DNA of 40,896 nucleotides from NCBI GenBank assembly GCA_016207925.1, contig JACQZB010000079.1, positions 1 to 40,896 on the forward strand, in the 5' to 3' direction. The position numbers and the translations under genes are program-made. The notes beneath the pieces were generated by a model, which saw only the letters and a list, made by a program, of their open reading frames with translations, was not told where the DNA came from and did not search any database. Within the stretch, counting starts at the first letter, position 1. The number at the start of each line of letters is the position of its first letter. This DNA is from Nitrospinota bacterium (lineage in GTDB: Bacteria; Nitrospinota_A; UBA7883). Shown one piece after another: positions 1,013 through 8,461 of the stretch.

Positions 1013-2179
1013 ATGAACAATTTCATCTACTACAATCCCACCGCGATACTGTTTGGCCGCGGGCAAGCGGACGCCGTGGGCGAACGCATGGCCCCGCTTG
1101 GCAGAAACATCCTGCTGCTCTCCGGCGGCGCCAGCGCGGAGCGCTCCGGCCTGCTGGATCGCGTACGGGAAAAATTGCGAACGGCGGGCGTGGCGTACAC
1201 GGAACTGCCCGGCGTCAAGCCTAACCCGGTCATCGAAAAAGTCCGCGAAGGCGCGGCCCTGTGCAAGTCAAGGCGCCTGGACGCCGTGCTTTCGGTGGGC
1301 GGCGGCAGCGTGCTGGATTCGGCCAAGGTCATCGCATCCGCCGCGCGGCACGAGGGCGACCCGTGGGAACTGCTGGCGAAAAAAATCAAGCCGGCCAATC
1401 CGCTTCCCGTCGGTTGCGTGCTGACCCTGGCGGCCACAGGGTCGGAGGCCAACGGCAACGCCGTCATCTCCAACCCCGCCACGGCGCAAAAGCTGGCGTG
1501 GTACCATCCGCAAGCCTACCCGCGCTTTTCCATCCTCGACCCGGAGTTGACCTTCACCGTGCCGCGCGAGCATACCGCCTATGGCGCCGTGGACATCATG
1601 GCGCATGTGTTCGAGCAGTATTTCCACGACGTGCAGGCCACACCGTTGCAGGACGGCGTCGCGGAAACCGTCCTGCGGACGGTGGCCGCCACCGCGCCCA
1701 TCGCCATGGCCCGGCCGGATGATTACGCCTCGCGCGCCAACCTGATGTGGGCCTCCACATTGGCGCTCCATGGTGTTGTGGGGGCGGGCGTTGTGGGCGA
1801 CTGGACCTGCCACATGCTTGAACACGAATTGTCCGCCAAGTACGACATCGCCCACGGCGCGGGATTGGCCGTGGTGTATCCCGCCTGGATGGAGTTGATG
1901 GCGCCGCGCAAGCCGGCCCGGTTTCGCCAGTTCGCCGTGAACGCGTGGGGAATTGACCCGCGCGGACGCGATGACTTGGCCGTGGCGCGCGAGGGCGTGG
2001 CGGCTACACGTTCCTTTTTCCGCGATACGCTTGGCGTGGGCGTTCGCTTGTCCGATTACGGCATCGCCCCGGACCGGCTTAACGAAATGGCCCAGGCGGT
2101 GTATGACCTTAAAGGCCCCACCGGCCTTGGCGGCTTGACGCGGGAGGATTTGGAGCGGGTGTACCGGGGGGCGCTGTAG
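1013..2179 (+). CDS. Iron-containing alcohol dehydrogenase (butanol dehydrogenase/YqhD-like)
   Basis: Motifs NFIYYNPT, VKPNP, VGGGSVLDSAK, TLAATGSE, metal ligands D..AH, H.LEHELSA and HGAGLA. Confidence 0.92.
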   Translation: MNNFIYYNPTAILFGRGQADAVGERMAPLGRNILLLSGGASAERSGLLDRVREKLRTAGVAYTELPGVKPNPVIEKVREGAALCKSRRLDAVLSVGGGSVLDSAKVIASAARHEGDPWELLAKKIKPANPLPVGCVLTLAATGSEANGNAVISNPATAQKLAWYHPQAYPRFSILDPELTFTVPREHTAYGAVDIMAHVFEQYFHDVQATPLQDGVAETVLRTVAATAPIAMARPDDYASRANLMWASTLALHGVVGAGVVGDWTCHMLEHELSAKYDIAHGAGLAVVYPAWMELMAPRKPARFRQFAVNAWGIDPRGRDDLAVAREGVAATRSFFRDTLGVGVRLSDYGIAPDRLNEMAQAVYDLKGPTGLGGLTREDLERVYRGAL

Positions 2180-2316: not shown

Positions 2317-3978
2317 TTACGGCGCCAAGGCGTTAAGGTGTTCCCCCTTGGGGATCCACCACTTTTCGAAGTTGTAGCCGATGCCCGCAAGGCCCGGTTC
2401 GATCCCGCGCACACGGGCGGAGACGATGGGCAGCGCCTCCGGCACGTACAGGAAGGTGTAGGGCTGATCCTCGGCGAGAATTTCCTGGAACCGGAAATAA
2501 TATTCGCGGCGCTTGTCCTGATCGAACACGCGCCTGCCTTTTTCCAGCAACTCGTCCACTTCGGCGTTTTTATAGGAGACGTGGTTGAGCTGATGCTCGC
2601 CGGTCATCGAGGAGTGCCAGATGATGTACTGGTCCGGGTCCAGGCCCAGCGTCCAGCCCAGGATCAATGCGTCGAAGTCGCGGGTGTTGACGAAGTTGTT
2701 GATGAACGCGCTCCACTCCAGCGGGCGGGCTTTCACCTCGATGCCCACCGCTTTAAGGCGCTGCTGGATGATCTCGGCGGTCTTGGCGCGTTCGGCGTTC
2801 CCCTGGTTGGTGAGAATCTCGAACTCGAACCGCTTGCCGTCCTTGTCGAGTACGCCGTCGTTGTCGCTGTCGCGCCAGCCCGCCTCGGCCAGCAGCTCTT
2901 TGGCGCGGGCGGGATTATATTCGTATTTTTTCACGTGGGGATTGTGCGCCCAATGCCCGGGTTTGAACGGCCCGGTGGCCTCTACCCCCAGCCCCAGCAG
3001 CACGCCGTCAATCACTTCCTTTTTATTGATGGCGTAGCTTATGGCCTGGCGCACGCGCTTATCGGCGAACAGCGGGCGCTTGAGGTTGTAGCCCAGGTAG
3101 GTGTAGGCGTTGGCCAGGTAGCGGTACTTGCGGTACTTCTCCTTGAAGTATTCCGAATCGGTCTGTTTGAGGTGTTGCAGCGGACGCAGGTCCATCATGT
3201 CTATCCCGCCGGACTTCAATTCCAGAAACTGCGTCGCCATGTCAGGGATCACCCTTGTCACGCTCCGTCCGATCCAGGGGCGCCCGTCGTAATAGTCCGG
3301 GTTGGCGCGCAGGGTGATCTGGGACTGCGTTTTCCAGTCCTCGAAAATCCACGGGCCGGTACCCACCGGATTTCGCGCCAGGGGGGATTTGATCAGGTCA
3401 ACGGGTTTTACGTCCTTGAGCAGGTGGCGCGGCAGGCCCGTCATGCCGGAAAGGCGCGCCAAGGCCGGGGCGAACGGCTCGCGGAACGTCACTACAAAGG
3501 TATGGTCATCGGGCGCGACGGCGGAAGCCATTTGCATGAACACGTCCTTGTAACCCGAAGGCACATCCGGGTGGATCATCATCTGGTACTGGTACACCAG
3601 GTCATGCGCGGTGAAGGGGACGCCGTCGTGCCATTTGATGGTGTCGTGCAGGTGGAAGGTAAGGGTCAGGCCGTCGGGCGACACCTCCCAGCGTTTCGCC
3701 GCGCCGGGGATGATGTTCATGTCCTTGTCCACGGTCAGCAGGCTGGCGAACACCGCGTCGCTGATGGCGCCGGAGGAAGCGTCGGACGAGAGGAACGGGA
3801 TCAGGTTGGACGCCTCGCCAATGGTGGCGCCGATAAATACGTCGCCAAAATCGTCCGCCGAAGGCGCGTTTTTGGATTGGCCCGGCGCGGCCGCATTAGG
3901 CGCGGGCGCTGGGGCGCGCTCGCAATTTGTCAGGATGAAAAGAAAGAGAACCGCCAGCGCCGTGCGCGGGCCGGCCAT
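2317..3978 (-). CDS. Peptide ABC transporter substrate-binding lipoprotein (family 5)
   Basis: Signal peptide ending in Cys (ILTNC); WHDGVPFTAHD, PVGTGPW and DKRVRQAI motifs. Confidence 0.92.
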   Translation of the reverse strand: MAGPRTALAVLFLFILTNCERAPAPAPNAAAPGQSKNAPSADDFGDVFIGATIGEASNLIPFLSSDASSGAISDAVFASLLTVDKDMNIIPGAAKRWEVSPDGLTLTFHLHDTIKWHDGVPFTAHDLVYQYQMMIHPDVPSGYKDVFMQMASAVAPDDHTFVVTFREPFAPALARLSGMTGLPRHLLKDVKPVDLIKSPLARNPVGTGPWIFEDWKTQSQITLRANPDYYDGRPWIGRSVTRVIPDMATQFLELKSGGIDMMDLRPLQHLKQTDSEYFKEKYRKYRYLANAYTYLGYNLKRPLFADKRVRQAISYAINKKEVIDGVLLGLGVEATGPFKPGHWAHNPHVKKYEYNPARAKELLAEAGWRDSDNDGVLDKDGKRFEFEILTNQGNAERAKTAEIIQQRLKAVGIEVKARPLEWSAFINNFVNTRDFDALILGWTLGLDPDQYIIWHSSMTGEHQLNHVSYKNAEVDELLEKGRRVFDQDKRREYYFRFQEILAEDQPYTFLYVPEALPIVSARVRGIEPGLAGIGYNFEKWWIPKGEHLNALAP

Positions 3979-4446: not shown

Positions 4447-6234
4447 ATGGAACGGATCGCGCCGCTTATGGTGATGGCGCTGGCCGCCGCGCTGCGCCTG
4501 GGACACTTTGCCGGTTCCGGCCACAATCCGCTGCTCCACTACCACACGCTCGACGAAGGCTACTACCTGGGCCTGGCGCGCGCGGTGGTGTCCGGCTACC
4601 TTTTGGGCGAGCCGCGCGTGTTTTTCATGGACCCGCTGTACGGCTACCTGCTGGCGGGGCTGTTCGCGCTGTTCGGGGACGACCTGCTCGCCGTCCGCCT
4701 GTTCCAGATCGCGCTGGACACGGCCAGCGTGGGGTTTATCTATTCCCTTGGCGCGCGGCTGGCCGGCCCCATGGCGGGGTTGGCGGGCGCGTGTTTGTAC
4801 GCGATCCACGGCCCCGCGATTTTTTACACGCTGTTGGCGCTTAAAACCACCGCGACGGTGTTCACGGCGTTGCTCTTCACCCGCGTGGCGCTGTGGGCGG
4901 GAGCGCGCGAGGGCGCATGGCCATGGGCGGCGGCAGGCGTCTTGGGCGGGTTTGCCATGCTGTTGAGCGCCAATATGCTGCTGTTCGCGCCGCTCGGCTG
5001 GCTTGCGTATCTACATGCGGAACGGCCCGCGCTCCGGCGCGCGCTCATCGCGGCGGCGGGGGCGGCGGCGGGTTTGGCGCTGGTGACGGGGATAAGCGCC
5101 GCGCGCAACTATTACGTCAGCGGGCAGCCAGCGCCGCTTAACACCCAATCGGGCAGGCTGCTGTATGCCAGCAACAATCCCGAAAACCTGACGGGAAGGT
5201 ACAATGTCCCCTCGTTCTCCCGCCGCACGCCGGTGGATTCGGAAACCGATTTTCACGCCGAAGCGGAGCGGCGGCTGGGCCGCAAGCTCTCGCCGATGGA
5301 AGCGTCCGCCTACTGGCGGAACGAAACAGCCGCCTTTCTGATGAGCGATCCTGGCGCGGCGGCCACCCTGTTGTGGAGAAAGGTTTTAGGCACAGCGGGG
5401 AATTATGAGTTGCCGGACAACTATTCGGTAAGCCAAGGGCTTGCGTTCTCGGCGGTGGGCAGGGCGCCGCTGCCCGGATTCTGGCTGGCGCTGGCATTGG
5501 GCGCCCCTGGGCTAGTGATCGGGATATGGCGCAACCGGCGCGCGGCGTACCTGTTGATTCCGGTTCTCACGGTGATGGCGACGGTTATTATCTTCTATAC
5601 CTCGTCGCGGTTCCGTATGCCCATGGTTCCCCTGCTTTGCGTTGGCGCGGGGATATTCGCGGCGGCGGCGGTTGATTGGCTCCGCGCGCGAAACTGGCGC
5701 CCTTTGCCGGCATGGGGCGCGGCGGCGCTGGCGCTGGCGGCGGTGTCCCTGTCCGCGCCCGCCCCGCCGTATTCCGCCGACGAGGATTACCAACTGGGCA
5801 TGGCGTACTGGACAGTGGGCGCTTTTACGCAAGCGCGTTCCGTGGCGGACAAGGGAGCGCGTGACTATCCCGGCGATGAACGCTTCGCCGTCATCACAGG
5901 CTTGGCGGCCATGGCCGAATCGAAATGGGATGAGGCCCACGCGCGGTTTGAGGCCTTGGCGCGGCGCGATCCGGGGAACGCTGACGCATGGCACAACCTG
6001 GGGCTTGCGGCGTTGGCCTTGGGAAAGACCCGCGAGGCGATAGCGCCGTTGGAGCGCGCCTGGCGGTTGAACCCCCGTCCGCGTACCCTGTTGGCGTTGG
6101 GGCGCGCCCATGAACAGGCGGGGGACGCTTCACGGGCGGGGGAATACTACCGGCGTTACCTTGAAATGGCCGGGCCGGGCGCCCCGCGGGCCAATGAGGC
6201 GCGTGAAGGTTTAGAGCGCGTGGGGACGAAATAA
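4447..6234 (+). CDS. GT-C/PMT-like (family 39-type) membrane glycosyltransferase with C-terminal TPR repeats
   Basis: Multiple TM helices, N-terminal LDE..Y, PLYGYLLA, SRFRMP, TPR motif AWHNLGLA. ATG 4447 follows AAGGGG; alternative start 4426. Confidence 0.75.
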   Translation: MERIAPLMVMALAAALRLGHFAGSGHNPLLHYHTLDEGYYLGLARAVVSGYLLGEPRVFFMDPLYGYLLAGLFALFGDDLLAVRLFQIALDTASVGFIYSLGARLAGPMAGLAGACLYAIHGPAIFYTLLALKTTATVFTALLFTRVALWAGAREGAWPWAAAGVLGGFAMLLSANMLLFAPLGWLAYLHAERPALRRALIAAAGAAAGLALVTGISAARNYYVSGQPAPLNTQSGRLLYASNNPENLTGRYNVPSFSRRTPVDSETDFHAEAERRLGRKLSPMEASAYWRNETAAFLMSDPGAAATLLWRKVLGTAGNYELPDNYSVSQGLAFSAVGRAPLPGFWLALALGAPGLVIGIWRNRRAAYLLIPVLTVMATVIIFYTSSRFRMPMVPLLCVGAGIFAAAAVDWLRARNWRPLPAWGAAALALAAVSLSAPAPPYSADEDYQLGMAYWTVGAFTQARSVADKGARDYPGDERFAVITGLAAMAESKWDEAHARFEALARRDPGNADAWHNLGLAALALGKTREAIAPLERAWRLNPRPRTLLALGRAHEQAGDASRAGEYYRRYLEMAGPGAPRANEAREGLERVGTK

Positions 6235-6258
6235 GGCGGCGGCTGGCCCAAGGGGAGG

Positions 6259-6904
6259 TTATTCGCGCAGGGAAACCAATTGCGCGGCGGGGACGGAAAT
6301 CCCATCGCTCACCAGCGAGTAGCCGGTAGTTGAACATGGAGTTGCGGTGGTTGGCGATATTGAACTGCACCACGCCCACCGCCCTTTCCCCAAAGGCGCA
6401 GCGCCTGGCCCCGGCCAGCGGGGGAAGTTTCACCGAGGCGGGAAGCGGCGCGGCGGCGCCGAGTTGTTGGGTAAGCCAGCGCGAGGCTTCGGTGGGGTCG
6501 GGGGTCGCGAGTTCCGGTGTTTCATGCAGGCGGTGGTTCACCAAGGACATCGCCAGAACTTTTTCCACGGGTGTTTTTTCCGTTTGTCGCGAAAGGTAAA
6601 GGGAACCGCTGGTGGCCGCGACGCCCACCGTAAAAAAGGCCATGGCGGCGATGGCGGACAGTTTCATTATCCGGGCCGCGCGCCGGGCGGGGACACCCGC
6701 CAGCGCGAAGGTATCCAGCGTTTGCGGCGGTTCCACCGCAAGCAGCGCGCCGCGTATTTTTTCATCCAGATCCAGCCGCCGGGAAAGCCGGGCGGAGCAG
6801 GGGGGGCACAACCGCGCGTGGGCCAGCGCTTCGGTGAAGAGCGGATCGGCGCTGTCAGGCGAAGGGGCCAGGTCAAGCGCCGCTCTTAGCCGGTCACATT
6901 CCAT
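6259..6904 (-). CDS. Zinc-binding (ZAS) transmembrane anti-sigma factor, interrupted near 6330
   Basis: HxxxCxxC (HARLCPPC), one TM, periplasmic domain. After ..NSMF the typical C-terminus GYSLVSDG..LRE* lies in another frame (stop 6259-6261), so a segment appears to be missing. Confidence 0.75.
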
Positions 6905-7427
6905 ACCGGCCTCCCTTAAGCGCCCGCAGCGGCTGGGCGGGGGCGGAAAGCTCCTCGCGCAACGCCCGCTTGGCGCGGTGGATACGGCTCATCACCGTGC
7001 CCAGGGGCAGCCCCATGGTCTCGGCGATCTCCTGGTAGCTTTGGCCGGATAGATAGTGCGCCACCAACGGGGCGCGGTATTTGTCGTCAAGCCGCTCCAT
7101 GGCCTTGCGCGCCTGCTCCGGTGTGACGTCATGGGGCCAAAGCCTTTCATCGTCCTGGCCGGATGGGGTGTGCGCGTCGTCAACGTATTCAACGGTCTTG
7201 CGAGCGCGCCGCCATTCGTCCACGAATCCGCGGTACAGGATTGAAAACAGCCACGATTTGGCTTTTTCCGGGTTGCGCAGGGCAGGAAGGGAATCGGCGG
7301 CCTTGACCACCGTGTCCTGAACCATGTCCTCCGCCGCGTCGCGGTCGCCGCATAGATGGAAGGCCATCGCGTACAGGGCGTTGACGTGAGGCAGGATAAA
7401 GCGTTCGACAGGGTTCATGTCAATCAC
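6894..7427 (-). CDS. ECF RNA polymerase sigma-70 factor
   Basis: AEDMVQDT and KSWLFSI (region 2); SYQEIAETMGLPLGTVMSRIHRA (region 4). Overlaps the anti-sigma start. Start GTG 7427 or ATG 7418. Confidence 0.93.
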   Translation of the reverse strand: MIDMNPVERFILPHVNALYAMAFHLCGDRDAAEDMVQDTVVKAADSLPALRNPEKAKSWLFSILYRGFVDEWRRARKTVEYVDDAHTPSGQDDERLWPHDVTPEQARKAMERLDDKYRAPLVAHYLSGQSYQEIAETMGLPLGTVMSRIHRAKRALREELSAPAQPLRALKGGRYGM

Positions 7428-7444
7428 ACACCATCATACATACC

Positions 7445-7474
7445 ATAAGACGCTTCACCTTTCATTTTATTCCC
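7445..7474 (-). promoter_or_regulatory. ECF sigma-type promoter of the sigma/anti-sigma operon (likely autoregulatory)
   Basis: Minus strand reads GGGAATAAAA-N12-CGTCTTAT (GGAAT-N16-CGTC), a typical ECF -35/-10 layout, just upstream of the sigma start. Confidence 0.75.
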
Positions 7475-7529
7475 AATAATGCCTGGCTGGCGGAATTTTT
7501 AGCTTCATTTCCATTTTCTCCGCATTTGA

Positions 7530-7559
7530 GGGAATAAAACGGAAAGGCTTCCGTCTTAT
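7530..7559 (+). promoter_or_regulatory. Second, divergent copy of the ECF-type promoter
   Basis: Plus strand reads GGGAATAAAA-N12-CGTCTTAT; both boxes (18/18 nt) and the spacing are identical to the copy at 7445-7474. Confidence 0.75.
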
Positions 7560-7560
7560 A

Positions 7561-7700
7561 CATGACAAGGGCGTCGCATCCGTCCCCCTGGATGTGTCCT
7601 CCCAACGCGCCCTTGTCATGTAAGCGGTGACCGGAGTCCCCTTCTCCACCCCGCGGCCCGCGAAGGGCGCGGACGGCTCGCTGGAGCCTTCCGCGCCCGC
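7561..7700 (+). ncRNA. Candidate ECF-dependent small RNA with C-rich loops
   Basis: Begins right after the ECF promoter. Perfect 15-bp inverted repeat 7559-7573/7608-7622, inner hairpin with loop GTCCCCCT, unpaired GTCCTCCC, second hairpin with loop TCCCCTT, and a GC-rich hairpin 7665-7698. Confidence 0.6.
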
Positions 7701-7711
7701 GCGGCGCATCC

Positions 7712-8461
7712 TTATTCATTGCGCCAGTTTTTCTGGACAACGCTCCCGTTCATGGCGCGCAGGTCAGGATCCTTGTCAAGCAACGCCACGGCGGCGCGCG
7801 AATTGAAGTTTTGCCCCATCGCCGCCAGCTTGGCGTAAAGCGCGCGCATCAGCGCCAAATCCTCCCGCGTATCCACCGTCAGGCGGTACGCGGCGCGCCC
7901 CGCCAGCCAGTCCGGCGGCGTGACCATGCGGACCTTGAACCGCTCCGGTTGCGAGTGAATGAACGTTGTGACGTGTTCGCGGAAGCGTGGTTCGACCGCT
8001 TCGGCGTCCGCCAGCCGCAGGGCCGCGGCGCTGGCAACTTCCGCCACCGATCCCAAGGGAGCGCCGCCCGCGCCCACCCAATCGGCCTTTTCGCGGATCA
8101 GTTCGGTGGTCATCATCCCCAGCGTTTCGGGATCCAGCAGCGGATTGTCCGCCGTGGCGCGCACGGCGGCGGCGGCGGGGTACTCGTCGAGCGCGATGAC
8201 AAAACGCCGCAGCACGTCTTCCTCCGGGCCGGTGACGCAGGGTATCCCCAGTGCGCGGGCGTAGCTGACCACCCGCGCGTCCGCCGGATTGGTGGAAGTG
8301 GCGATAACGATACGTTCGATTCCCGGCGTCCGGCGCAGCCGTTCTATTACCCAGCCCAGCAGCGGTTTATCGCCGATAGGCTCGAAGATTTTCCCCGGCA
8401 GGCGGGTGGAAGCCACACGGGCCTGAAGGATGGCTTGCAGGGTGACAGTGGGCGCGCTCAT
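7712..8461 (-). CDS. SpsF-like cytidylyltransferase (glycosyltransferase family)
   Basis: AILQARVASTRLPGK, GPEEDVLRRF, RATADNPLLDP, REHVT and RLTVDTREDL motifs. Confidence 0.88.
   Translation of the reverse strand: MSAPTVTLQAILQARVASTRLPGKIFEPIGDKPLLGWVIERLRRTPGIERIVIATSTNPADARVVSYARALGIPCVTGPEEDVLRRFVIALDEYPAAAAVRATADNPLLDPETLGMMTTELIREKADWVGAGGAPLGSVAEVASAAALRLADAEAVEPRFREHVTTFIHSQPERFKVRMVTPPDWLAGRAAYRLTVDTREDLALMRALYAKLAAMGQNFNSRAAVALLDKDPDLRAMNGSVVQKNWRNE

What the first reader, a model, noticed from the sequence alone, without database searches (positions are those of the whole stretch)
7445..7700. ECF sigma / zinc anti-sigma / divergent small-RNA module
Seen: the gap upstream of the ECF sigma holds two back-to-back copies of GGGAATAAAA-N12-CGTCTTAT (7474 to 7445 on minus, 7530 to 7559 on plus). 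The minus copy faces the sigma/anti-sigma operon. The plus copy faces no annotated gene, but a ~140-nt structured stretch whose predicted 5' end closes a 13-15 bp stem. It displays three related C-rich motifs, GTCCCCCT (7582), GTCCTCCC (7596) and GTCCCCTT (7636), in loops or unpaired segments, and ends in a GC-rich hairpin (7665-7698). Known: ECF sigmas autoregulate through GGAA-N-CGTC type promoters, and sRNAs such as RsaE, GsrN and CcsR/cuckoo use exposed C-rich loops to pair with G-rich mRNA sites such as Shine-Dalgarno sequences. Inference: an unannotated sRNA serves as the post-transcriptional arm of this ECF response. I do not recognise it as a named family.
Basis: partly seen in the sequence, partly recalled or inferred. 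Interest (0 to 1): 0.85.

Follow-up and report, generated by a model that had tools for sequence, protein, structure and literature searches.

The report
Sigma-factor-driven C-rich small RNA candidate
Next to a stress sigma-factor gene of an uncultured bacterium lies a second, identical copy of that factor's promoter, aimed at a short, tightly folded, non-coding stretch with exposed C-rich loops, most likely a small regulatory RNA of a known general kind whose expression has not yet been shown.

Summary
Two identical GGGAATAAAA-N12-CGTCTTAT sites sit back to back at 7474-7445 (-) and 7530-7559 (+). They are the only two in the 2.67-Mb genome. One faces an ECF sigma / HxxxCxxC anti-sigma operon. 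The other faces about 150 nt with no conserved reading frame. That stretch folds far better than shuffles (z -8.2). It keeps three related C-rich motifs unpaired and ends in a GC hairpin with a U-rich tail.

New evidence:
- The motif occurs only in the 4 of 33 phylum genomes that carry the sigma ortholog.
- In a related strain seen in two other studies, 7489-7699 shows 4 changes in 211 nt. The flanks show 19 in 179 nt, mostly synonymous.
- In 3 of 4 orthologous lineages the same promoter is followed, on the sigma strand, by a hairpin with an exposed C-rich loop.

No Rfam family matches. No RNA data exist, so transcription, sigma dependence and targets remain inferred.

Verdict: a probable ECF-dependent small RNA. 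It works like GsrN or CcsR but is a member of neither. I rate it a new member of a known kind, of moderate interest.

The parts
7445..7474 (-). ECF-type promoter copy 1 (-35 GGGAATAAAA, 12-nt spacer, -10 CGTCTTAT), about 27 nt upstream of the sigma start codon
   Evidence: In the related strain only spacer positions 7456 and 7457 and flanking positions 7442 and 7443 differ.
7530..7559 (+). ECF-type promoter copy 2, with identical -35 and -10 blocks, facing the structured stretch
   Evidence: No difference is listed in the related strain.
7560..7621 (+). Hairpin 1. A 14-15 bp outer stem starts at the predicted transcript start. An inner 8-bp stem carries the apical loop UCCCCC (7583-7588). An unpaired bulge UCCUCCCAAC lies at 7597-7606.
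   Evidence: The G-U pairs 7582:7589 and 7576:7595 exist only on the + strand. The relative turns 7576:7595 into G-C and breaks 7571:7610.
7624..7654 (+). Hairpin 2, a small stem GGAG/CUCC with loop UCCCCUU (7637-7643)
   Evidence: No difference is listed in the related strain.
7656..7720 (+). Long GC-rich hairpin (7656-7707, core 7665-7698) followed by AUCCUUAUUCAUU. This is the probable 3' end and terminator of the + transcript. It may also end the convergent gene's transcript.
   Evidence: One search gives the structure. One search finds one terminator-like site on + at 7693-7707 with a T-rich tail (0.7 expected in shuffles, so weak on its own). After the hairpin the minus strand has no T-rich tail.
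6894..7418 (-). ECF sigma factor gene (174 aa from ATG 7418; the listed ORF starts at GTG 7427)
   Evidence: Pfam Sigma70_r2 and Sigma70_r4_2. TIGR02937 scores 70.7 bits against a cut-off of 42.9. The start is placed by alignment with orthologs.
5894..6904 (-). Anti-sigma gene with HARLCPPC (HxxxCxxC) and one membrane segment. In this assembly about 30 codons are missing and the frame shifts near 6316-6331, so the listed 336-aa ORF has a spurious tail.
   Evidence: H29, C33, C36 invariant in 4 orthologs; no contig of run X1 covers 6316-6330, and one carries other sequence left of 6331 that reads like the orthologs.
7712..8461 (-). Convergent cytidylyltransferase gene whose 3' end abuts the terminator hairpin
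   Evidence: Pfam CTP_transf_3, E 4.5e-28.

Best explanation
The + strand of 7560 to about 7716 is a gene for a non-coding RNA of about 150 nt. It is transcribed by the neighbouring ECF sigma factor from a second copy of that factor's own autoregulatory promoter.

When the anti-sigma releases the sigma, both promoters fire. One amplifies sigma and anti-sigma. The other makes an RNA whose 5' end is locked in a 14-bp stem and whose 3' end is a GC hairpin with a U-rich tail. The RNA presents three single-stranded C-rich motifs (UCCCCC, UCCUCCCAAC, UCCCCUU). I infer that these pair in trans with G-rich stretches of mRNAs, such as ribosome-binding sites or G-rich leaders, and so change their translation or stability.

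The module 'this promoter plus a C-rich-loop RNA' is older than this genome. In related genera it lies in tandem between the promoter and the sigma gene. In this lineage the promoter was duplicated and the RNA unit now points the other way.

Shown by computation: the twin promoter, its link to the sigma ortholog, the fold, the lack of a conserved frame, and strong sequence constraint.
Inferred: transcription, sigma dependence, trans action, and pairing with G-rich targets.
For: 1. Promoter. There are two perfect copies and no other within 3 mismatches in the genome. A weight-matrix scan gives both 32.1 bits, the next site 25.0, and the rest 21.2 or less (74 sites passed the filters). GGAATAA-N12-15-YGTCTTA gives 6 matches in 4 of 33 genomes of the phylum. 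All 4 are genomes with the 51-55% identical sigma ortholog, and 4 of the 6 matches lie directly upstream of that gene. The reversed control gives 4 matches in 4 other genomes.

2. Constraint. Contigs of a related strain in runs X5 and X9 (two studies other than the best holder) span 7275-7892 and 7511-7892.
- 7310-7488: 19 listed differences in 179 nt. Within the sigma coding part, 9 are synonymous and 2 are not.
- 7721-7769: 9 differences in 49 nt (6 synonymous, 3 not).
- 7489-7699: 3 substitutions and 1 inserted T in 211 nt.
The Fisher test gives p = 3e-4. The -35 and -10 blocks of both copies are untouched, while the spacer of the minus copy changed.

3. Fold. z is -8.2 on + and -4.0 on -. 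The C-rich cores are 0.99-1.0 unpaired. The natural variant keeps all helices, at -84.7 kcal/mol.

4. Not coding. The 22-codon frame from ATG 7562 takes a frameshift (+T after 7588) and two non-synonymous changes in the relative.

5. Analogues. In L006, L008/L115 and L009 the same promoter lies 203-263 nt upstream of sigma. The leader holds a hairpin of 7-16 bp whose loop has a run of 5-10 C, with unpaired probability 0.87-1.0. Such hairpins number 19 in 93,820 nt of 29 loci from relatives, and 3 of the 19 are these leaders. That is a background of about 0.02 per 250 nt, so 3 of 4 lineages is about 6e-5 by my arithmetic. Between L008 and L115 the stem keeps pairing through one two-sided change and three one-sided changes, and the loop stays C-rich. 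In that pair the hairpin is followed by a U run and then a conserved sigma-70-like promoter, so the ECF transcript there looks like a separate short RNA.

6. UCCCCCU occurs in the window loop and in the L006, L009 and L115 leaders. The genome-wide rate is 4-9e-5 per nt per strand.
Against: - No expression data of any kind exist, so the start, end and sigma dependence are unobserved.
- The window-type RNA shows no covariation. Of the 5 changes in the relative, 2 break a pair (7571:7610, 7662:7700), 1 improves a pair and 2 lie in a loop.
- The difference table is capped at 40 rows, and 20 of the 52 differences of the X5 contig are not shown. I argue that they lie beyond 7700, but I cannot prove it.
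- Homology between this RNA and the ortholog leaders is not demonstrable. A model of 7560-7655 finds only itself in 33 genomes. On the ortholog loci its best matches are the L009 leader (E 0.37) and the L008 hairpin (E 1.4), neither significant.
- In relatives the element is part of the sigma leader and could act in cis.
- G003 (L007) has the sigma but no such element.
- The 3' tail is only moderately U-rich.
- No target stands out.
- Hfq was not found in the 91%-complete genome.
Confidence: 0.5

Rival explanations
1. The + promoter exists to send ECF-dependent transcription towards the convergent cytidylyltransferase gene. It would act by transcriptional interference, or the RNA's 3' hairpin region would act as a cis-antisense partner of that mRNA's 3' end. 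The structured stretch would be spacer and terminator rather than a trans-acting regulator.
For: The only annotated feature downstream of the + promoter is the 3' end of the gene at 7712-8461 (-). The hairpin 7656-7707 would be shared by both transcripts. The U-rich tail is weak, so read-through is plausible.
Against: A spacer or terminator role does not explain why 7560-7655 is nearly invariant while neighbouring synonymous sites diverge. It also does not explain why three related C-rich motifs are kept unpaired. Orthologous loci have the promoter plus C-loop hairpin with quite different neighbours.
Confidence: 0.13
2. The RNA is real and ECF-dependent, but it works by binding a protein, as a decoy or scaffold for a factor that recognises C-rich loops, or in cis as a leader element. 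It does not pair with mRNAs.
For: - In 3 of 4 orthologous lineages the element is part of the sigma leader.
- Loop composition (C runs) is kept while loop sequence varies, for example C9 in L008 against UUCCCCCUCC in L115. This fits recognition of composition.
- No target stands out, and Hfq was not found.
Against: No candidate protein is known. CsrA is present, but it recognises GGA, and the GGA triplets here lie in stems. In this genome the RNA is attached to no gene, so a purely cis leader role is excluded here.
Confidence: 0.15
3. There is no functional RNA. The + promoter copy is a by-product of a local duplication or inversion, and the hairpins are simply the convergent gene's terminator and chance GC-rich structure.
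For: The genome has 63% G+C, so C runs and stable folds are common. There are 946 hairpins with a C5 loop genome-wide, or 0.035 per 200 nt per strand. The two spacers share GAAAGG, which hints at a duplication. No transcript has been observed.
Against: - About five-fold fewer differences fall in 7489-7699 than in the flanks in a related strain from two other studies.
- z is -8.2, with 0 of 200 shuffles as good.
- The triple motif is unique in the genome.
- Analogous elements occur in orthologous loci.
Confidence: 0.12
4. The transcript is a leaderless mRNA for a 22-residue peptide (ATG 7562 to TGA 7628-7630).
For: The ATG lies at the predicted start site and the frame is open for 22 codons.
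Against: The related strain carries an inserted T after 7588, which is a frameshift. It also carries changes at 7571 and 7583 that would both alter the residue. The frame lies entirely inside a 14-bp stem.
Confidence: 0.02

Closest known systems
GsrN of Caulobacter and GsrN-like RNAs of Alphaproteobacteria (PMC5869019, passages read)
   Same: It is an sRNA transcribed from the promoter of an ECF-family sigma factor. Its exposed C-rich loop is the best-conserved part. Its homologs are typically encoded next to the sigma and anti-sigma genes. It acts on G-rich mRNA sites.
   Different: GsrN depends on sigma-EcfG/SigT with NepR and PhyR. Here the sigma is another ECF type with an HxxxCxxC membrane anti-sigma, and the promoter is GGGAATAAA/CGTCTTA. 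There is no sequence or Rfam match. This RNA has three C-rich sites, not one. The lineage is unrelated and uncultured.
CcsR1-4 / cuckoo RNA family (PMC4615179, passages read; PMC8034643, listing only)
   Same: These are stress-sigma-dependent RNAs built of hairpins whose loops carry an anti-Shine-Dalgarno-like C-rich motif. The stems vary freely, so covariance models perform poorly.
   Different: The defining loop motif CCUCCUCCC is absent here; only UCCUCCC occurs, and in a bulge. The promoter type differs (the RpoHI/HII dependence of CcsR is recalled, not read). No upstream DUF1127 gene is present.
Sigma-E-dependent MicA, RybB and MicL of enterobacteria
   Same: They embody the same concept: an ECF sigma factor has a non-coding arm that represses mRNAs after transcription.
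   Different: Those RNAs are Hfq-dependent, pair through 5' seed regions rather than C-rich loops, and are encoded away from rpoE. The window shows no Rfam match at gathering scores.
Staphylococcal C-rich-loop sRNAs (RNAIII; the UCCC motif as described in PMC4615179; RsaE/RoxS recalled)
   Same: UCCC-type motifs in several loops are proposed to seed binding to ribosome-binding sites, without a strict need for Hfq.
   Different: They have no link to an ECF sigma, occur in a different phylum, and show no sequence or Rfam match.

Membership tests
ECF (group 4) sigma-70 factors | Only regions 2 and 4 of sigma-70, about 170-200 aa | tested here: met
   Pfam Sigma70_r2 (E 1.1e-12) and Sigma70_r4_2 (E 4.8e-17). 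TIGR02937 scores 70.7 bits against a cut-off of 42.9; no equivalog model reaches its cut-off.
ECF (group 4) sigma-70 factors | Autoregulation: the cognate promoter lies upstream of the factor's own operon and is conserved with the gene | tested here: met
   A GGAATAA...YGTCTTA site lies upstream of the ortholog in the window, G004, G009, G015 and L115, with a weaker -35 in G003. The motif is found only in the 4 of 33 phylum genomes that have the ortholog.
Zinc-binding (ZAS) anti-sigma factors | HxxxCxxC motif in the N-terminal anti-sigma domain | tested here: met
   HARLCPPC is in the window protein. H29, C33 and C36 are invariant in 4 orthologs. No Pfam model matches the window protein. Two of three orthologs give DUF3379 below its cut-off (22 bits against 33.2). 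Zinc binding itself is not testable here.
ECF26 group | Group-specific sigma sequence; promoter consensus -35 GGAATA / -10 GT (as quoted in PMC6180224) | not tested
   Only the -35 resemblance (GGGAATAAA) was seen. No ECF group models were available, so this is a lead, not an assignment.
Cuckoo / CcsR RNA family | 2-4 adjacent hairpins, each loop carrying CCUCCUCCC (PMC4615179) | tested here: not met
   7560-7716 holds no CCTCCTCCC. The nearest is TCCTCCC at 7597-7603, in a bulge. No Rfam match.
GsrN | Sequence homology to Caulobacteraceae GsrN; sigma-EcfG promoter; PhyR-NepR-EcfG locus | tested here: not met
   No Rfam hit at gathering, and only chance-level hits at E up to 10. The anti-sigma is a 250-aa membrane protein with HxxxCxxC, not NepR. 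Whether Rfam 15 holds a GsrN model was not checked.
Trans-acting base-pairing sRNA (general kind) | Own promoter, discrete terminator, no coding frame, conserved single-stranded seed | tested here: inconclusive
   Supported by computation: the promoter, the lack of a conserved frame, and unpaired conserved C-rich segments. The terminator is only weakly canonical. The transcript and its targets are unobserved.

The most novel reading that the evidence does not exclude
The conserved core output of this small ECF family is an RNA rather than proteins. The sigma gene travels with its own riboregulator cassette, made of the cognate promoter plus a C-rich-loop RNA. Selection has kept the cassette through a rearrangement from tandem (a leader or short terminated RNA in related genera) to divergent with a duplicated promoter (here). 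In this genome the RNA would be the only clear direct target besides the sigma operon itself. It would act without Hfq in an uncultured lineage for which no riboregulator is described.
Probability: 0.3. Interest if true: 0.65.

Novelty: new member of a known kind. Interest (0 to 1): 0.5.

Why it matters
ECF sigma factors are the largest class of bacterial signal-responsive sigma factors. For most groups the regulon is known only as a few neighbouring protein genes. A second, independent case would suggest that this design is a recurrent solution. It would lie outside the Alphaproteobacterial general stress response, and the sigma would carry a C-rich-loop RNA next to its own gene.

The case also gives a simple genomic rule for finding sRNAs in uncultured bacteria: look for a duplicated autoregulatory ECF promoter that faces no gene. 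The natural contrast between the tandem and the divergent arrangement could show whether such leader elements work in cis, in trans or both.

It does not open a new category of regulation.

Tried and rejected
- Rfam: no match at gathering scores in the whole window. At E up to 10 in 7380-7780 there were 6 weak hits, the best at 20.5 bits against a gathering score of 71. Nothing was found in the leaders of 7 related loci.
- DNA search of 7428-7711 in 60 relatives: no match outside the own genome. One 25-nt match on contig C170 lies inside a coding region and looks like chance.
Only ECFs of 36% identity or less came back, and none was an ortholog.
- Metagenome-contig scan with the anti-sigma alignment gave 3 loci. 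L117 repeats L009's leader over the part printed. L116 has no upstream DNA. Only L115 added information.
- RNA evidence: no RNA holder listed.
- One search used too narrow a gap (N11-13), which excludes the window's own spacing. It was repeated correctly.
- Single-sequence covariance model of 7560-7655: only itself was significant in 33 genomes (E 2.5e-24). The next hit (E 0.048) is the same place on the other strand. On ortholog loci the best hits (L009 leader E 0.37, L008 hairpin E 1.4) are not significant.
- Crude target scan: RNAduplex of the three C-rich segments against 7,368 G-rich candidate start regions, from 34,385 candidate starts without gene annotation. The energies form a continuum (mean -23.9, sd 4.9) with no outlier, so it is uninformative in a 63% G+C genome.
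- Idea that the RNA controls the cytochrome gene that is ECF-driven in relatives: in this genome the homologue (contig C40) sits behind a different sigma / anti-sigma pair, and no convincing pairing was seen.
- CsrA sponge idea: CsrA is present, but the GGA triplets are in stems.
- Small-peptide reading: rejected.
- The lineage's name was not determined.
- Supplementary files of the papers were not consulted.

Full report
**What is there**

The window (63% G+C overall) has an AT-rich gap between a minus-strand operon and a convergent minus-strand gene.
- The operon encodes an ECF sigma factor at 6894-7418. It matches Pfam regions 2 and 4, and TIGR02937 is the only NCBIfam model over its cut-off.
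- Overlapping its end is an anti-sigma gene with HARLCPPC and one membrane segment.
- The gap holds GGGAATAAAA-N12-CGTCTTAT twice, back to back, at 7474-7445 (-) and 7530-7559 (+).

**Is it more than chance?**

- With up to 3 mismatches the 18 specified letters match twice in the window, against 0.04 expected; 0 of 100 shuffles reach two.
- The same two sites are the only matches in the 2,668,105-base, 91%-complete genome.
- A weight matrix built from ten promoter instances gives both sites 32.1 bits. The next site scores 25.0 (contig C164, upstream of an SCO1/SenC gene). All others score 21.2 or less.
- 7560-7710 (+) folds at -91.8 kcal/mol, with z -8.2 and 0 of 200 shuffles as good. The other strand gives z -4.0. 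Two G-U pairs exist only on the + strand.
- The motif GTCC[CT]C[CT][CT] occurs 520 times in the genome, but three within 62 nt occur only here.
- The three C-rich cores are 0.99-1.0 unpaired in the ensemble.

**Is the motif the sigma's promoter?**

The sigma has only four orthologs (51-55% identity) among 40 relatives; all other hits are 36% or less. It has 9 relatives at E <= 1e-30 in the large protein collection.
- A GGAATAA...YGTCTTA site lies upstream of the ortholog in G009, G015, G004 and the metagenome locus L115. G003 has a weaker -35.
- Across the 33 genomes of the phylum the pattern matches 6 times, in exactly the 4 genomes that have the ortholog. The reversed control matches 4 times, in 4 other genomes.
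- In relatives the same motif also precedes a SoxA/TsdA-like cytochrome c gene with NPC repeats plus a multihaem cytochrome (G015; the same pair sits upstream of sigma in G003). It also precedes a small exported protein in G004.

Autoregulation from this motif is therefore well supported. I read the quoted ECF26 consensus (-35 GGAATA, PMC6180224, passages), but I treat it as a resemblance only.

**Constraint in a related strain**

No RNA run holds the locus, but DNA runs do. I laid four of them. Contigs from X5 and X9, two studies other than the best holder, cover 7275-7892 and 7511-7892. They carry 52 and 28 differences, so the whole arrangement is conserved in a relative about 8% different.

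| Region | Listed differences | Detail |
|---|---|---|
| 7310-7488 | 19 in 179 nt | in sigma codons 5-37, 9 synonymous and 2 not |
| 7489-7699 | 3 substitutions + 1 inserted T in 211 nt | includes the + promoter and the RNA |
| 7700 | 1 | breaks a pair |
| 7721-7769 | 9 in 49 nt | 6 synonymous, 3 not |

- Fisher's test of 19/179 against 4/211 gives p = 3e-4.
- In the minus promoter only the spacer (7456, 7457) and the flank (7442, 7443) changed. The + promoter is unchanged.
- Caveat: the table is capped at 40 rows, and 20 of the X5 contig's 52 differences are not shown. The single-run rows stop at 7700, and the local rate beyond 7720 is 18%. I therefore think the hidden rows lie beyond 7700. 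Even if the hidden rows were a random half, the depletion would remain about five-fold.
- Of the five changes in the RNA, 7595 turns a G-U pair into G-C. Changes at 7571 and 7700 each break one pair. The change at 7583 and the inserted T lie in the apical loop, which becomes C6. The variant keeps all helices, at -84.7 kcal/mol.

So there is strong constraint but no covariation.

**Coding?**

The only frame that begins at the predicted start (ATG 7562, 22 codons) is frameshifted by the inserted T and takes two residue changes in the relative. The 59-codon frame from 7627 overlaps the convergent gene. I reject coding.

**Orthologous loci**

In L006, L008, L115 and L009 the promoter lies 203-263 nt upstream of the sigma start. 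The leader, on the sigma strand, carries a strong hairpin whose loop holds a C run:

| Locus | C run in the loop | Unpaired probability |
|---|---|---|
| L006 | C10 and C5 | 1.0 and 0.99 |
| L008 | C9 | 0.94 |
| L115 | UUCCCCCUCC | 1.0 |
| L009 | AUCCCCCUCG | 0.87 |

- With one fixed descriptor (an uninterrupted stem of 7 bp or more, with C5 in the loop), 29 loci of relatives (93,820 nt, both strands) hold 19 such hairpins. Three of them are these leaders.
- The background is about 0.02 per 250 nt. Three of four independent lineages is therefore about 6e-5 by my arithmetic. The descriptor was chosen after seeing the data.
- L008 and L115 (90% identical anti-sigma) differ in the stem by one two-sided change (U-A to C-G) and three one-sided changes that keep pairing. 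One mismatch sits at the base of the stem.
- In that pair the 5' part of the leader is only 55-68% identical. After the hairpin come a U run and a 90%-conserved sigma-70-like promoter (TTGACA-N17/18-TATATG). The ECF transcript there looks like a short terminated RNA upstream of a separately promoted sigma gene.
- G003 (L007) lacks the element.
- L117 duplicates L009, and L116 has no upstream DNA.
- UCCCCCU is shared by the window loop and the L006, L009 and L115 leaders. The genome-wide rate is 4-9e-5 per nt per strand.

Sequence or structure homology between the window RNA and these leaders could not be shown. I therefore claim a conserved kind of module, not a demonstrated RNA family.

**Mechanism**

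The most economical reading is an ECF-dependent small RNA.
- The 5' stem starts at the transcript start, which suggests protection from 5' decay.
- The 3' end is a long GC hairpin (7656-7707) followed by AUCCUUAUUCAUU. One search lists one terminator-like site on +, which is weak alone.
- On the minus strand the same hairpin has no U-rich tail.
- In this genome the RNA is attached to no gene. If it is functional it must act in trans, or as an antisense partner of the convergent gene's 3' end.
- Exposed C-rich loops are a recognised signature of RNAs that pair with G-rich or Shine-Dalgarno sites (PMC4615179, passages). GsrN is an ECF-dependent example that uses a C-rich loop and is usually encoded beside its sigma (PMC5869019, passages).
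- Pairing with G-rich targets here is inference only. My target scan was uninformative, Hfq was not found, and CsrA is present but its GGA sites are not exposed.

**Comparison and novelty**

- It works like GsrN and like the CcsR/cuckoo RNAs, but it fails their defining features. There is no CCUCCUCCC loop motif, no EcfG/NepR/PhyR context and no Rfam match.
- The idea of an ECF sigma with a non-coding arm is established. The enterobacterial sigma-E RNAs are recalled, not read.
- This is therefore a new member of a known kind.
- Its particular interest lies in three points. The natural tandem-versus-divergent contrast bears on cis versus trans action. The direct regulon in this genome looks very small. 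The promoter-duplication signature could be used to find such RNAs in uncultured bacteria.

**Confidence**

| Claim | Confidence |
|---|---|
| A functional, ECF-driven non-coding RNA is encoded here | about 0.65 |
| The full statement, including trans pairing with G-rich sites | about 0.5 |
| Pairing with G-rich sites specifically | about 0.35-0.4 |

Noticed in passing
window 6259-6400 (-), anti-sigma gene: Compared with four orthologs, the window's anti-sigma lacks about 30 codons after ...RNSMFNY and changes frame. The ortholog-like end GYSLVSD...* is in another frame and stops at 6259. In run X1 no contig covers 6316-6330, and one contig carries other sequence left of 6331 that reads FDAGEFGVS in frame, like the orthologs (F-D-x-x-x-F-G-V). 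Runs X5 and X11 show a 2-letter skip at 6329-6330. This is probably an assembly collapse or a strain variant, not a dead gene.
   Followed up: partly
own genome, contig C164:26809-26849 (+); locus L127: This is the third-best promoter-like site in the genome (GGGAATTTAA-N13-CGTCTTAT, 25.0 bits). It lies about 150 nt upstream of an SCO1/SenC gene (Pfam E 1.1e-20), a possible further regulon member that hints at a copper or cytochrome theme.
   Followed up: partly
L119 (G015 C176), L007 (G003): In relatives the same ECF promoter precedes a SoxA/TsdA-like cytochrome c. This protein has N- and C-terminal NPCNPCA repeats and is followed by a multihaem cytochrome.
   Followed up: partly
own genome, contig C40:2786-3550 (-): The own genome's homologue of that cytochrome c (42% identical) sits directly behind a different, small sigma / HxxxCxxC anti-sigma pair.
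   Followed up: partly
L008 about 1400-1440 (+) and L115 about 2402-2440 (+): A sigma-70-like promoter (TTGACA, 17-18 nt, TATATG/TATGAT) lies between the C-loop hairpin and the sigma start. It is 90% conserved between the two loci, so that sigma gene probably has a housekeeping promoter of its own. The same stretch holds a 26-codon frame with 3 synonymous and 6 non-synonymous differences, which does not look coding.
   Followed up: partly
L007 473-516 (-): An Rfam match to a plant-virus xrRNA class 3 model scores 33.9 bits against a gathering score of 31 (E 0.0011), in a bacterial genome. It is probably a false positive and was not examined.
   Followed up: no
window 7453-7464 and 7540-7551: The two promoter spacers share the hexamer GAAAGG, offset by one base. 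In the related strain the minus-copy spacer changes at the two bases after it. This is compatible with origin by duplication.
   Followed up: no
own genome, contig C170:4301-4325 (-): A 25-nt stretch, 96% identical to window 7485-7509 (between the two promoters), lies inside an apparent coding region. It looks like chance.
   Followed up: partly
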